DNA of 56,031 nt, the filler included, from Sphacelaria rigidula (taxonomy: Eukaryota), in the NCBI GenBank assembly GCA_964200075.2. It is 6 parts of 6 records of this genome, joined end to end, with 100 filler letters (N's around TTAATTAATTAA, not from the genome) between each part and the next. Parts side by side here need not be neighbours in the genome. Positions count along the whole stretch, not along the records: positions 37,424 to 46,677 come from CAXNAA020008913.1; 5 more parts are not named here. One strand, 5' to 3'. Within the stretch, counting starts at the first letter, position 1. Each line of letters starts with the position of its first letter. The notes under the pieces were generated by a model. The model was not told the DNA's origin and did no database searches. It saw only the letters and a program-made list of their open reading frames with translations. A program made the translations under genes and the position numbers. Shown one piece after another: positions 37,424-46,372 of this stretch.

Positions 37424-40400
37424 AAACTCTCTCTGCAGTTCTGTCGAACCACTATCTTCCCGTTCCGACGTCTCTACATTTTCCTTTGCCCAGGGTGTGT
37501 GTGTGTGTGTGTGTGTGCAAGAGACGAGAGGAGGGTAGAATGTGCTCTTAACAGGAAATGAAAAGCCATCGATACGCACTTTGAGAGGCGGAGGTGCGTG
37601 AACAACAACGGTAGTGCGGAAGAATTACGTGTATTCTCCCGACATTTTTTCCAGGCAAGTACTGCCATCACTCACCGTACGAGACTTGACAGTTAACAAA
37701 ATGACCCATAACAGCTGGGAGAGGCATAAAATAAAGGCGCGAAACTTCGCTCCATCACTCTCCAATACCACAGCTCCCCTACCCACCCCCACCCCCAACT
37801 CGTTCCTCAAAGATTCACCATACCAAAATCGCTCCCACCATACTCACCGTCCAGATGCTTTCCCGCCGCTCCAATCGGTTTGACGGGATGCTTCGCCAGT
37901 GAAGTTTCCGCCTCTTGTCCTTCGATTTTTTCACCAGCGGCCCGCGCGGGGGGCCCCGCGGCAAACCTCTCCCGGGGAGCGGAGGGAGCCCCCTGCCCGC
38001 AGCCATACCTGGCAGGGGCGGCGGCGGCGGCAAGCCGCCGCCGGGACCGCGCGGCATACCCGGAAGTGGAGGAGGCATGGGGGGGCCTCGCCCAGCCATC
38101 CCAGGCAAAGGTGGGGGCAGCGGTACGCCACCCCCTGCACCCGGCATGCCAGGGAGCGGCGGCGGCGGCGGAATTCCCCCACCCATACCCGGTAGTGGGG
38201 GAGGGGGAGGTATTGCGCCGCCCATGCCAGGTAGGGGAGGAGGTGGAGGTATTGCGCCGCCCATGCCAGGTAGCGGAGGAGGTGGAGGTATTGCGCCGCC
38301 CATGCCAGGCAGAGGGGGAGGAGGAGGTATTGCGCCACCCATGCCAGGCAGAGGGGGGGGAGCAGGAATTGCGCTGCCCATGCCCGGCAAAGGGGGAGGA
38401 GTAGGAATCGCGCCGCCAATGCCAGGTAAAGGAGGTGGCGTAGGTATGTCGCCACCACTGGCCGCTGGCACTTCCTCACCCGGAGGTGCAGGGAACAGAG
38501 CGTCCGGAGTGTCCAGTATCGCTTGATCCACGCCTGCCTTAGCCATGGCCTGCAGCGCGGCCCCTCGTGGCAAGCCCATCTTGAGCATCTTGAAGAACTT
38601 CGAGTAATCCGGATGGTCTTTCGCCGCGATCATACTCGGCGCGGCCGGAGCTGCCTCCCCCTCACCCGGAGGTGCAGGGAACAGAGCGTCCGGAGTGTCC
38701 AGAATCGCTTGATCCACGCCTGCCTTAGCCATGGCCTGTAGCGCAGCCCCTCGTGGCAAGCCCATCTTGAGCATCTTGAAGAACTTCGAGTAATCCGGAT
38801 GGTCTTTCGCCGCGATCATACTCGGCGCGGCCGTGGCTGCTGGGGCCGCAGCGGGAGTCGCTGTCCCCTCACCCGGAGGTGCAGGGAACAGAGCGTCCGG
38901 AGTGTCAAGTATCGCTTGATCCACGCCTGCCTTAGCCATGGCCTGAAGTGCGGCCCCTCGCGGCAAGCCCATCTTGAGCATCTTGAAGAACTTGAAGTAA
39001 TCGGGGTGATCCTTCGCCGCGATCATACTCGGCGCGGCCGGCGCGGTAGGGGCAGCAGAAGTCGGAGCTGCCTCCTTCTCACCCGGGGGTGCAGGGAACA
39101 GAGCGTCCGGAGTGTCCAGAATCGCTTGGTCCACGCCCGCCTTAGCCATGGCCTGCAGCGCAGCCCCTCGCGGTAAGCCCATCTTGAGCATCTTGAAGAA
39201 CTTGAAGTAATCGGGGTGGTCCTTCGCCGCGATCATGCTCGGTGCGGCCGGGGCGGTCGGGGCTGCTGGAGCCGAAGTCGCTGCGCTGTCATGCGCAGGT
39301 AGTGGGAAGAGAGCATCGGGAGTATCCAGTATTGTTTGATCCACGCCCGCCTTAACCATCGCCTGCAGGGCGGCCCCGCGCGGCATCCCCATCTTTATCA
39401 TCTTGAAAAACTTGAAGTAATCTGGATGATCCCTTGCCGGCACCATTCCCGGTGGCGATCCCACCGTTGCTGGTGGTGTCCCCGGAATCAAACCTGGCGC
39501 CCGTTCCGCCATCGCGACCTCCGTCACCGTTGCGATCATATCCGCGTGATGTTTCAAATACTCAGCGCACTCTTCGGGCGTTGATAACGGACAGAGAGCA
39601 TCGGGGGTATCCAGAATAGCCTGGTCTAGGCCTGTCTTTCCCAAGGCTTGCAGCGCGGCCCCGCGCGGTATTCCCATCTCGAGCATCTTGAAGAACTTCA
39701 AGTAGGTCGGATGGTCCTTGGCCGGCACAGCACCCGGTACCTTGGGCACCCTAGGCCTTGGTGGGGGCAGAACCTCTTTCGCCGTATGCGTGACAGCAGC
39801 TTGCTTCTCCATCGCTGCCACCACCTCCGCCGCGGCTGCCATCGCCGCTGCCGCCGCCTCTTCTGCCTCCTCTCCGGCCGACGGCAACGGGAACAGAGCG
39901 TCCGGGTTGTCGAGTATGGCAACGTCAATCTCTTTCTCCCGCATCTCCTCCATGATCTTCTCCCGCTTCCTTCCGGCGTTCAAAAGATCGAAAAACCTGG
40001 CATACTTGGGATGGTCACGAGCCGGCTTGAGGCTTGACATCGACTGCGCGGCCGCCTCGGCCGCCGCCATCGCGGCCGCTGCTACCGGGGAAGACTTCTG
40101 CAATTGAGATTTCGGAGAGAGCGACGTATCAATAGCCGTAGGCCGTTTACGGGCCCTACCCGATCGCGAAGTTGGCCTTTCCGGCGTTCTCCGAGTCCTG
40201 CGCCCCGACCACGTTCCTGCCGAGGCCGCGGCCGCAGCCTCTGCCGCGGCCGCAGCGGTCGCCTGCACCATCGCCGGTCCCGGCACAGGTGTGTTGAGAA
40301 CAGCTGGGTATTTCCCTTCCAACACCATTGCTAGCTCCACAGTTTCGCGGGGCACTCCCTCTTCCAGCATGAGAAAGAACTTGGCATACTCGGGGTCTTT

Positions 40401-46372: not shown

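What the first reader, a model, noticed from the sequence alone, without database searches (positions are those of the whole stretch)
37848..46372. Formin fused to an N-terminal PHD finger and eight WASH-subunit (CCDC53)-like repeats
Seen: in-frame splicing reconstructs a >2300-aa N-terminal region made of a complete C4HC3 finger (split by the 45946-45159 intron, so the ORF track misses it), a long disordered spacer, eight [15 protein letters not shown] repeats, then FH1 and the FH2 lasso. Established: animal and fungal formins typically use GBD/FH3, plant ones PTEN or TM domains; PHD fingers usually read histone tails or phosphoinositides; the repeat resembles the C-terminal DPRYxKYFKMLxMGVP motif of CCDC53/WASHC3. 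Inference: an actin nucleator that may link a chromatin- or lipid-reading module with multivalent WASH-like docking. CCDC53-type repeats do occur in some stramenopile formins as I recall; the PHD combination is the part I do not recognise.
Basis: partly seen in the sequence, partly recalled or inferred. Interest (0 to 1): 0.78.

Follow-up and report, generated by a model that had tools for sequence, protein, structure and literature searches.

The report
Middle part of giant brown-algal formin
This is a real, spliced gene for a very large actin-filament-building protein (a formin) of a brown-alga-like organism; its odd zinc finger and repeat array are shared with relatives in water moulds and other brown algae, so it is an unusual family member rather than a new invention.

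Summary
On the minus strand, three phase-0 exons (46372-45947, 45158-41469, 40922-37848) encode 2397 residues: a C4HC3 PHD-type finger split by a 788-nt intron, a ~1,300-residue spacer, eight CCDC53 C-terminal-type repeats (Pfam E 1.2e-70), an FH1 with 12 PPPLPG motifs, and the first ~25 residues of FH2. RNA-like contigs of public runs join all three junctions at GT..AG; a DNA-like run does not.

The window is six ~9.25-kb pieces, and the gene is cut at both ends. Transcript contigs continue about 1.15 kb 5' of a splice acceptor at 46433 and about 5.7 kb 3' of 37848. Orthologues place a PTEN-C2 and UBA-like region upstream, so the PHD finger is internal.

PTEN + PHD-like finger + CCDC53 repeats + FH2 already exists in public oomycete proteins, and PHD finger + repeats + FH2 in an Ectocarpus paralogue. 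CCDC53+FH2 is common in stramenopiles (54 of 65 hits). WASH docking is unlikely: a 2012 survey found no WASH in Ectocarpus or diatoms.

In 36 of 46 related formins the repeat array abuts FH2 where FH1 normally sits. This gene is therefore a new member of a known but poorly described class.

The parts
46433..46434 (-). AG splice acceptor that joins off-window upstream exon(s) to this exon
   Evidence: Contigs of X5/X6 (1492 nt) and X7 (1476 nt) stop matching at 46434, with 1146-1150 nt further 5' not in the window. Sequence read.
45947..46432 (-). Exon holding a conserved peptide upstream of the ATG (46372), a Gly/Ser-rich stretch and the first Cys pair of the finger. The frame is open from 46432.
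   Evidence: Orthologues P0067, P0105-P0108.
45159..45946 (-). Intron 1 (788 nt, GT..AG), which splits the PHD finger
   Evidence: Joint in 1 contig each of X5/X6 and X7, absent from X1. Six orthologue models (P0067, P0105-P0108, P0069) break or read through at the same codon.
45006..45988 (-). PHD-type C4HC3 zinc finger (includes intron 1), with a 32-residue helical insert before the last Cys pair
   Evidence: The spliced Ectocarpus fragment P0072 scores 26.1 bits against the cut-off of 24. Alignment. Model and Foldseek search.
41469..45158 (-). Exon 2 (1230 codons): rest of the finger plus the long spacer
   Evidence: One contig covers it whole.
42231..44834 (-). Unconserved spacer rich in Ser, Ala, Glu, Pro and Asp (exon-2 residues ~109-976)
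   Evidence: Composition. About 1 of 7 orthologues identical per column.
41469..42230 (-). Conserved islands at the end of the spacer (exon-2 residues 977-1000, 1028-1075, 1176-1230)
   Evidence: At least 4 of 7 orthologues identical over 20-residue windows.
40923..41468 (-). Intron 2 (546 nt, GT..AG)
   Evidence: Joint in X5/X6 and X7, absent from X1. The same junction appears in Ectocarpus fasciculatus protein P0003.
37848..40922 (-). Exon 3 (1025 codons): spacer end, repeat array, FH1 and FH2 start
38454..40406 (-). Eight CCDC53 C-terminal-type repeats. 58-residue frames: 40233-40406, 39852-40025, 39552-39725, 39267-39440, 39057-39230, 38847-39020, 38640-38813, 38454-38627. The last four are 88-93% identical to one another.
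   Evidence: Pfam. Coordinates. Alignment A1. 186/210-nt tandem repeats.
37932..38456 (-). FH1: 12 P(2-5)LPG motifs, 39-nt tandem repeat
   Evidence: Pfam Drf_FH1 at E 5.5e-12..
37848..37931 (-). Start of FH2 (basic stretch, K-L-H-W, S-I-W); the rest is off-window
   Evidence: BLASTP to Phytophthora infestans formin P0019 residues 1110-1132, E 2e-4; its FH2 starts at about 1102. Pfam alone finds nothing in 34 residues.
37846..37847 (-). GT donor of the next intron
   Evidence: Loose ends at 37847 in X5/X6 and X7. The contigs continue about 5.68 kb.

Best explanation
The region is the middle ~2,400 codons of one very large formin gene of a brown-alga-like stramenopile. The gene is cut at both ends by the edges of a 9.25-kb window piece.

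The protein belongs to the stramenopile PTEN-type formin class. The inferred full order is: PTEN-like phosphatase + C2 and a UBA-like domain (off-window, inferred from orthologues), PHD-type zinc finger, a spacer of about 1,300 residues in all that is largely unconserved, eight CCDC53 C-terminal-type three-helix repeats, FH1, then FH2 (only its start is in the window).

Likely mechanism (inferred). The PTEN-C2 / UBA-like / PHD head places the protein on a phosphoinositide-bearing membrane or a partner there, as the PTEN domain does for plant class II formins. The long flexible spacer lets the C-terminal half reach away from that anchor. FH1 feeds profilin-actin to the FH2 dimer, which nucleates and elongates filaments. 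The repeat array sits immediately before FH1-FH2 and acts as a multivalent module that serves FH2 rather than as a dock for a WASH complex. Its ligand is unknown.
For: Shown:
- Exon structure and splicing.
- Domains: CCDC53 x8 and FH1; single repeats match PF10152 positions 109-147.
- PHD finger: exon 2 alone scores 17.7 bits; the spliced Ectocarpus sp. fragment P0072, with identical ligand spacing, scores 26.1 bits against the cut-off of 24. The AlphaFold model has mean pLDDT 77.5, and the top Foldseek rows are almost all PHD fingers, with probabilities up to 1.00.
- The gene continues both ways in RNA-like contigs.

Orthologue evidence:
- P0117 (Ectocarpus sp. 13) joins exon 1, finger and spacer start. 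It overlaps P0003 (E. fasciculatus), which joins spacer to repeats.
- In P0106 (Hapterophycus) a region precedes the conserved pre-ATG peptide and aligns to the C2 and UBA-like region of Phytophthora cactorum P0047 (E 7e-13).
- P0047 matches human PTEN (1d5r, E 4.1e-15) and DAAM1 FH2 (E 3.2e-42). Its finger aligns to P0072 at E 8e-13.
- 9 of the 12 further hits to the finger that I scanned have a PHD-like finger + CCDC53 x3-6 + FH2. Five of those nine also show sub-threshold PTEN-type phosphatase or PTEN_C2 matches.
- Position of the array: in 36 of 46 formins with repeats and a complete FH2 N-end, 40 residues or fewer separate the last repeat from FH2, and 39 of 46 have no PPP tract there.

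Literature:
- Stramenopile PTEN formins are described by Grunt et al. 2008 (PMC2386819; abstract, section 7 and passages read).
- PTEN-domain binding of PI(3,5)P2 in moss class II formin: PMC3410418 (start of the abstract in a search listing only).
Against: - The PTEN-C2-UBA head and the FH2 body of this particular gene were never seen. They rest on orthologues and on contig lengths.
- P0106 is a partial gene prediction from a 3.2-kb contig.
- The runs are only guessed to be RNA, and contigs cannot prove one molecule. The assembly is broken across the repeats (38235-39189), where continuity rests on the open frame in the DNA.
- Pfam PHD on the window's own exon is below the cut-off, and the joined protein could not be scanned.
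- Foldseek E-values are weak (best 0.04).
- No function of any domain was tested.
- The set of 46 formins was gathered with this gene's own repeats and finger and holds near-duplicates (five Aphanomyces/JGI cluster members).
Confidence: 0.72

Rival explanations
1. One reading: a formin whose N-terminal PHD finger reads histone tails or lipids and whose eight repeats dock several WASH complexes, coupling formin and Arp2/3 nucleation.
For: The finger has a PHD fold. The repeats are truly homologous to the C-terminal motif of the WASH subunit. The first repeat region matches PF10152 positions 28-147, that is, most of a CCDC53 protein (40.9 bits). Oomycetes, which have such formins, also have WASH (PMC3298513, passages read).
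Against: - The finger is internal.
- Ectocarpus is reported to have WAVE and not WASH, and diatoms to lack Arp2/3 and all WASP-family proteins (PMC3298513). Both groups still keep the repeats in formins.
- The repeat corresponds to the part of CCDC53 outside the N-terminal region that, as I recall, builds the complex core.
- No Trp at the recalled cage position in 0 of 18 rows.
Confidence: 0.07
2. The repeat array is a functional stand-in for, or booster of, FH1. Each three-helix unit would recruit an actin monomer, profilin-actin or another assembly factor and hand it to the FH2-bound barbed end. This brown-algal lineage keeps both systems.
For: - In 36 of 46 related formins the array ends 40 residues or fewer before FH2.
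- 39 of 46 have no PPP tract in that gap, and 20 of the 46 have no PPP tract anywhere.
- The same motif occurs in a subunit of another actin-nucleating machine (Pfam PF10152).
- The arrays are multivalent (2-10 copies), like FH1 tracks.
Against: - This is purely positional evidence.
- No similarity to WH2 or other known actin- or profilin-binding folds was found.
- The best profile match is a UBA domain at a non-significant E of 0.07.
- The model is only moderately confident (pLDDT 67).
- The sample is biased and partly redundant.
Confidence: 0.18
3. Gene-model artefact: the PHD/spacer exons and the repeat/FH1 exon belong to separate neighbouring genes, as most public models of the orthologues suggest.
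For: Public predictions split the locus. P0066-P0071 end by reading into intron 2. P0002, P0005 and P0010 start just after it.
Against: One 5504-nt contig in X7 and one 5490-nt contig in X5 join the exons at GT..AG, in phase, with no depth in the introns. E. fasciculatus P0003 joins them too.
Confidence: 0.03

Closest known systems
Oomycete PTEN-type formins with a PHD-like finger and CCDC53 repeats: Phytophthora cactorum 'Tensin phosphatase, lipid phosphatase domain' P0047, Pythium oligandrum 'Formin-like protein' P0099, Albugo laibachii P0088, Aphanomyces astaci 'PHD-type domain-containing protein' P0078
   Same: The same finger (8 ligands, the R/K-I-P-F ... W-x-C-x2-C insert; E 8e-13), the same order finger - CCDC53 repeats - FH2, and the same PTEN-C2 and UBA-like region upstream as in brown-algal P0106.
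   Different: The oomycete proteins are 1,200-1,570 residues with 3-6 repeats and a short linker. They have no polyproline FH1: the last repeat ends 12-19 residues before FH2. The window gene has a spacer of about 1,300 residues, 8 repeats and a full FH1.
Ectocarpus fasciculatus partial protein P0098 (PHD + CCDC53 x5 + FH2), a brown-algal paralogue
   Same: PHD finger, repeats and FH2 in one annotated public protein of a brown alga.
   Different: Short linker and no FH1 (18 residues between the last repeat and FH2). Its finger is only about 24% identical to the Ectocarpus orthologue fragment P0072.
Plant class II formins (PTEN-FH1-FH2)
   Same: A PTEN-like head used for membrane targeting, followed by FH1-FH2 (PMC3410418, listing abstract; PMC2386819).
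   Different: No PHD finger and no CCDC53 repeats. Grunt et al. argue that the PTEN-FH2 fusion arose independently in stramenopiles (PMC2386819, abstract and section 9 passages).
WASHC3 / CCDC53, subunit of the WASH complex (Pfam PF10152)
   Same: Each repeat is homologous to about the last 39 profile positions.
   Different: WASHC3 is, as I recall, a small single-copy protein with one such motif after an N-terminal helix. Here the motif is in eight tandem copies inside a formin, in a lineage reported to lack WASH (PMC3298513).
Oomycete FYVE - zinc-ribbon - CCDC53 - FH2 - PAH formins (for example Phytophthora nicotianae P0028)
   Same: A cross-brace zinc finger ahead of CCDC53 repeats and FH2. 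18 of 65 hits carry FYVE PF01363.
   Different: The finger is FYVE, not PHD. There is no PTEN head, and a C-terminal ZNF598-type PAH domain is present.

Membership tests
Formin (FH2 proteins) | FH2 domain (Pfam PF02181) | not testable with these tools
   Only about 25 residues of its start lie in the window. Pfam finds nothing in 34 residues. BLASTP to the FH2 start of P0019 gives E 2e-4. The contigs run on about 5.68 kb, and the next exon is not in any of the six pieces.
Formin (FH2 proteins) | Proline-rich FH1 directly before FH2 | tested here: met
   Drf_FH1 at E 5.5e-12; 12 P(2-5)LPG motifs.
PHD finger (Pfam PF00628) | C4HC3 ligand pattern with canonical spacing | tested here: met
   C-x2-C-x13-C-x2-C-x4-H-x2-C-x32-C-x2-C across the confirmed splice. 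The ligands are conserved in every row that covers them.
PHD finger (Pfam PF00628) | Score above Pfam's gathering cut-off (24 bits) | tested here: inconclusive
   The window's exon 2 alone scores 17.7 bits, covering profile positions 12-47. The joined protein could not be submitted. Spliced orthologue P0072 scores 26.1, P0096 26.2 and P0094 24.2; the other relatives score 16-20.
PHD finger (Pfam PF00628) | PHD fold | tested here: met
   Model of orthologue P0072: mean pLDDT 77.5, with 51 of 110 residues at 90 or above. The top Foldseek rows are almost all PHD fingers, with probabilities up to 1.00, but the best E is 0.04 and none is at or below 0.001.
Histone H3K4me3-reading PHD fingers | Aromatic cage including a Trp just before the (F/Y)-H (position recalled, not from a call) | tested here: not met
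   0 of 18 aligned rows have Trp there. The residues found are G, Y, M, V, S, I, N or F.
WASHC3 / CCDC53 (Pfam PF10152) | C-terminal conserved motif | tested here: met
   E 1.2e-70 in 8 stretches. Single repeats match positions 109-147 at 31.8 and 34.8 bits against the cut-off of 24.6; repeat 2 scores only 14.6.
WASHC3 / CCDC53 (Pfam PF10152) | Small stand-alone subunit with an N-terminal helix that assembles into the WASH complex | tested here: not met
   The motif lies inside a protein of more than 2,400 residues, in eight copies. Only the first repeat region extends to profile position 28. Assembly into a complex was not testable.
WASHC3 / CCDC53 (Pfam PF10152) | WASH complex present in the organism | not tested
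   No genome is held for the window. The literature reports WAVE and not WASH in Ectocarpus (PMC3298513, passages read).
Stramenopile PTEN-type formins (Grunt et al. 2008) | N-terminal PTEN-like phosphatase + C2 | not testable with these tools
   This part is off-window. Contigs hold 1146-1150 nt more at the 5' end. Orthologue P0106 has a C2-like and UBA-like region that aligns to P0047 residues 270-424 (E 7e-13). P0047 residues 29-236 match PTEN 1d5r (E 4.1e-15).
Stramenopile PTEN-type formins (Grunt et al. 2008) | Shared finger and repeat array with PTEN-bearing members | tested here: met
   P0072 against P0047 gives E 8e-13. Alignment. Architectures.

The most novel reading that the evidence does not exclude
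The roughly 40-residue C-terminal motif of the WASH subunit CCDC53 is a free-standing three-helix 'feeder' module for actin assembly. Stramenopile formins would have captured it, multiplied it and in most lineages used it in place of the polyproline FH1. This brown-algal giant would be a form that runs both systems in series. If so, the unexplained C-terminus of WASHC3 would gain a function, and an FH1-independent way of supplying FH2 would exist.
Probability: 0.15. Interest if true: 0.75.

Novelty: new member of a known kind. Interest (0 to 1): 0.42.

Why it matters
Read evidence here shows that a locus which the public brown-algal predictions I saw mostly split into two or three 'hypothetical proteins' is one giant formin. 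It ties that formin to an old stramenopile class (PTEN-C2, UBA-like, PHD, CCDC53 repeats, FH2) that is in the databases. I found no open paper that describes it: 0 papers hold both 'FH2' and 'CCDC53'.

Brown algae depend on actin for tip growth, cytokinesis and cell-wall patterning, so a membrane-anchored formin with a very long tether is a reasonable candidate for those processes.

The wider point is the repeat array. It sits where FH1 normally is in most relatives, it survives in lineages said to lack WASH and even Arp2/3, and it has no assigned function in WASHC3 either. That makes it a small, cheap target for biochemistry.

Tried and rejected
- **No own genome:** none is held for the window.
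- **Exon 2 against longer proteins:** no hit.
- **Sequencing runs:** no RNA holder is listed; the laid runs are RNA only by guess.
- **Read laying cover:** no cover of 37424-37732 in any run. The assembly is fragmented across 38235-39189.
- **Next exon:** the 30-letter loose end was sought in all six pieces, with 0 matches at up to 3 mismatches.
- **FH2 start:** Pfam on the 34-residue piece found 0 families.
- **N-myristoylation/palmitoylation of the M-G-G-G-C start:** rejected. The exon is spliced to upstream sequence, the Met is not conserved, and the peptide before it is.
- **Fold and relatives of the repeat:**
  - phmmer against PDB: nothing relevant.
  - Profile against PDB: the best match is the UBA domain 1whc at E 0.07, not significant.
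  - Foldseek: best E 6.3.
  - VIA-align wide: best Z 3.7, generic helical matches.
  - hhalign against the formins' own UBA-like region: probability 0.6%.
  - ESM Atlas: no usable hit.
  - The UBA-like idea therefore stays a hint only.
- **Wider repeat alignment:** The repeat model rests on the window's eight copies alone, six of which are similar, which probably limits its confidence.
- **Earlier notes of this scan:** none found.
- **Literature:** 'FH2' + 'CCDC53' gave 0 papers. 'formin' + 'Phytophthora' + 'PTEN' + 'PHD' gave only Grunt 2008. 'formin' + 'FYVE' + 'oomycete' gave nothing relevant among the 15 of 43 papers listed.
- **Unread supplement:** Grunt's Additional file 4 would say which species' formin carried the PHD and FYVE domains named in its legend. 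It is a PDF and could not be read.
- **Complex prediction:** not used, because no actin, profilin or WASH sequence of this organism was at hand.
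Full report
**What the window is.** The 56,031-base window is not one stretch. It is six pieces of about 9,255 bases joined by N44-TTAATTAATTAA-N44 linkers. The finding lies in piece 5 (37424-46677). Whatever gene is there can therefore be cut at 37424 and at 46677. 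No whole genome is held for the window.

**The observation.** On the minus strand I read the following model.
- ATG at 46372.
- Exon to 45947 (142 codons).
- Intron from GT at 45946 to AG at 45159.
- Exon 45158-41469 (1230 codons).
- Intron from GT at 41468 to AG at 40923.
- Exon 40922-37848 (1025 codons).
- GT donor at 37847.

All junctions are phase 0, there is no stop, and the total is 2397 residues.

The finger reads C-x2-C-x13-C-x2-C-x4-H-x2-C-x32-C-x2-C, with the first Cys pair before the intron.

Pfam gives the following:
- CCDC53 (PF10152) at E 1.2e-70 in eight stretches.
- Drf_FH1 at E 5.5e-12.
- For exon 2 alone, PHD at 17.7 bits (cut-off 24) over profile positions 12-47 only. That is what a finger lacking its first Cys pair should give.

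Scanned singly, repeats 5 and 8 match only the last ~39 positions (109-147) of the CCDC53 profile and pass the cut-off on their own at 31.8 and 34.8 bits. Repeat 2 scores 14.6. The region around repeat 1 matches positions 28-147 at 40.9 bits.

The last four repeats are 88-93% identical and form 186/210-nt tandem repeats in the DNA. FH1 is a 39-nt tandem repeat with 12 P(2-5)LPG motifs.

**Are the junctions real?** Nine public runs hold the stretch, and none is on record as RNA. I laid four of them.

- X1 behaves as DNA. One 7455-nt contig runs unspliced from 39189 to 46574.
- X5 and X7 behave as RNA. X6 has identical figures to X5 and is probably the same data. Depth is zero inside both introns. 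Contigs skip exactly 45159-45946 (788 nt) and 40922/3-41467/8 (546 nt), with GT..AG on the minus strand.
- One X7 contig of 5504 nt carries the end of exon 1, all of exon 2 and exon 3 down to 39175.
- At 37847, contigs of 6070/6092 nt leave the window. Their loose end continues the frame for ten more codons without a stop, and about 5.68 kb of contig follows.

Three caveats apply. The RNA label is a guess. Contigs do not prove single molecules. The assembly is fragmented across the repeats (38235-39189), where continuity rests on the open frame in the DNA.

Orthologue models agree. E. fasciculatus P0003 crosses junction 2. Ectocarpus sp. fragments P0072 and P0117 cross junction 1. Six other models break or read through at the same codon of junction 1.

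The 5' contigs of X5 and X7 (1492 and 1476 nt) match the window only with their last ~330-346 nt and stop at 46434, beside an AG acceptor. A further 1146-1150 nt lie 5' of that point, outside the window. Several observations fit a coding upstream exon.

- The reading frame is open from 46432.
- The 19 residues between the acceptor and the ATG are identical in two unnamed relatives (P0067, P0105) whose flanking exon sequence has diverged. They are nearly identical in three more (P0106-P0108), and at least three of the five lack the Met.
- In the Hapterophycus canaliculatus partial protein P0106 this peptide follows about 217 residues that align to residues 270-424 of Phytophthora cactorum P0047 (E 7e-13).
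- That part of P0047 lies just after its PTEN-like phosphatase domain (residues 29-236 match human PTEN 1d5r, E 4.1e-15). It includes a UBA-like stretch (Pfam UBA at 18.4 bits in P0106, below the cut-off of 22.4).

The finger is therefore internal. The M-G-G-G-C 'start', which I first took for an acylation signal, is not the N-terminus.

The next 3' exon is in none of the six pieces. The FH2 body was therefore not seen. Its start aligns to the FH2 start of a P. infestans formin (E 2e-4), but Pfam cannot residues.

**Is the architecture new?** No.

A search with the repeats found 65 proteins. Of these, 54 carry both PF10152 and PF02181 by the database's precomputed Pfam. They come from brown algae, diatoms and oomycetes, and 18 also carry a FYVE finger.

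A HMMER search of 1.84 billion representatives with the exon-2 half of the finger found 39 proteins. The best eight are brown-alga-like orthologues. Most are models that start inside exon 2 or read through an intron.

Of 12 further hits that I scanned, nine have a PHD-like finger followed by 3-6 CCDC53 repeats and FH2, and five of the nine also show sub-threshold PTEN-type phosphatase or PTEN_C2 matches. A tenth has PTEN-C2 and PHD only. Two are unrelated or carry only a PHD-like match. I did not scan the other 18.

The named ones are Aphanomyces astaci (UniRef 'PHD-type domain-containing protein'), A. euteiches, Albugo laibachii, Pythium oligandrum ('Formin-like protein') and Ectocarpus fasciculatus (P0098, a shorter paralogue).

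In an alignment of 18 sequences, the six ligands encoded in exon 2 are invariant, together with a Gly, an Ile-Pro pair and a Trp. The first Cys pair is present in every row that covers it. P. cactorum P0047 aligns to the Ectocarpus finger at E 8e-13.

A model of P0072 built on this alignment has mean pLDDT 77.5. Its top Foldseek matches are almost all PHD fingers (Pygopus, TAF3, BPTF, BAZ2A and others; probabilities up to 1.00). The best E is 0.04 and none is at or below 0.001.

Grunt et al. 2008 already described PTEN-bearing stramenopile formins. The legend of their Additional file 4 lists PHD and FYVE among single-species formin domains (PMC2386819; abstract, section 7 and passages read). 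The file itself is a PDF that I could not open.

I found no paper holding both 'FH2' and 'CCDC53'.

**What is distinctive here.** Compared with the oomycete members, the gene has three features.

- A very long spacer of about 1,300 residues between finger and repeats. About 870 residues of it are unconserved and rich in Ser, Ala, Glu, Pro and Asp. Conserved islands lie in the last ~255 residues of exon 2.
- Eight repeats.
- A true FH1.

The FH1 point led to a wider observation. In 39 of the 46 there is no PPP tract in that gap, and 20 have none anywhere. The remaining seven are FYVE-class members with one tract in a gap of 52-56 residues. In most relatives, then, the array occupies the place of FH1. 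The window gene and its orthologues P0001 and P0005 have both.

The set is biased, because it was gathered with this gene's own sequences. It also holds near-duplicates.

**The repeat itself.** A model from the eight window copies gives three short helices. Mean pLDDT is 67, and 83-85 over the first two helices. No search gave an informative relative.

- PDB by sequence: nothing relevant.
- PDB by profile: best match a UBA domain at E 0.07.
- Foldseek: best E 6.3.
- VIA-align: best Z 3.7.
- hhalign against the formins' own UBA-like region: probability 0.6%.
- ESM Atlas: no usable hit.

**How it most likely works.**

*Shown:* one spliced transcript encodes finger, spacer, eight repeats, FH1 and the FH2 start.

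*Inferred from orthologues:* a PTEN-C2 and UBA-like head upstream and an FH2 body downstream.

*Inferred from family knowledge:* the head anchors the protein on a phosphoinositide membrane, as the PTEN domain of moss class II formin does through PI(3,5)P2 (PMC3410418; I saw only the start of the abstract in a listing). FH1 delivers profilin-actin, and the FH2 dimer nucleates and elongates filaments. The spacer would act as a long flexible tether.

*The finger:* probably a protein- or lipid-binding part of the head, not a histone reader. It lacks the Trp that I recall as part of the methyl-lysine cage (0 of 18 rows). Its most conserved surface is a family-specific helical insert.

*The repeats:* WASH docking is unlikely. 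A 2012 survey reports WAVE but not WASH in Ectocarpus, and neither Arp2/3 nor WASP-family proteins in diatoms (PMC3298513, passages read), yet both groups keep the repeats in formins. The position of the array suggests that it serves FH2 directly. The boldest version, that it feeds actin in place of FH1, is untested.

**Verdict.** The gene is a new, unusually large member of a stramenopile formin class that exists in public databases but is hardly described in print. Interest is moderate. The repeat array at the FH1 position is the part most worth an experiment.

Noticed in passing
window 9257-9356, 18613-18712, 27969-28068, 37324-37423, 46678-46777: The window is six pieces of about 9,255 bases joined by N44-TTAATTAATTAA-N44 linkers. 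Features cannot be assumed to continue across these points.
   Followed up: yes
window 38033-38154 (FH1): In all four laid runs, including the DNA-like X1, one contig replaces these 122 bases with 29 other letters. The net change is -93 nt, which is in frame. This is either an FH1 length variant or an assembly shortcut through the 39-nt tandem repeat.
   Followed up: no
window 38745: A>G difference in contigs of X1 and X5/X6, inside repeat 7. It may be an allele or cross-talk between near-identical repeats.
   Followed up: no
window 13600-16864, minus strand (piece 2): Retrotransposon-like open frames: RT-linked RNase H (PF17917, E 1.7e-28) and an integrase zinc-binding domain (PF17921, E 3.2e-13).
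   Followed up: partly
window 25329-25805, minus strand (piece 3): Fragment of a reverse transcriptase (RVT_1, E 3.3e-9).
   Followed up: partly
window 2277-3506, plus strand (piece 1): 410-residue open frame ending in ankyrin repeats (Ank, E 4.1e-12).
   Followed up: partly
proteins P0066-P0071, P0002, P0005, P0010, P0001 (public predictions of orthologues): Public gene models of this locus in other brown algae are mostly broken at the introns. They end by reading into intron 2 or 3, or start just after intron 2, so the full architecture is hidden in the databases.
   Followed up: partly
window 40278-40712, minus strand: The region before and including repeat 1 matches CCDC53 profile positions 28-147, not just the C-terminal motif (40.9 bits). 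A near-whole CCDC53 gene may have been captured and only its last motif multiplied. An Ala-rich composition could also explain the match.
   Followed up: no
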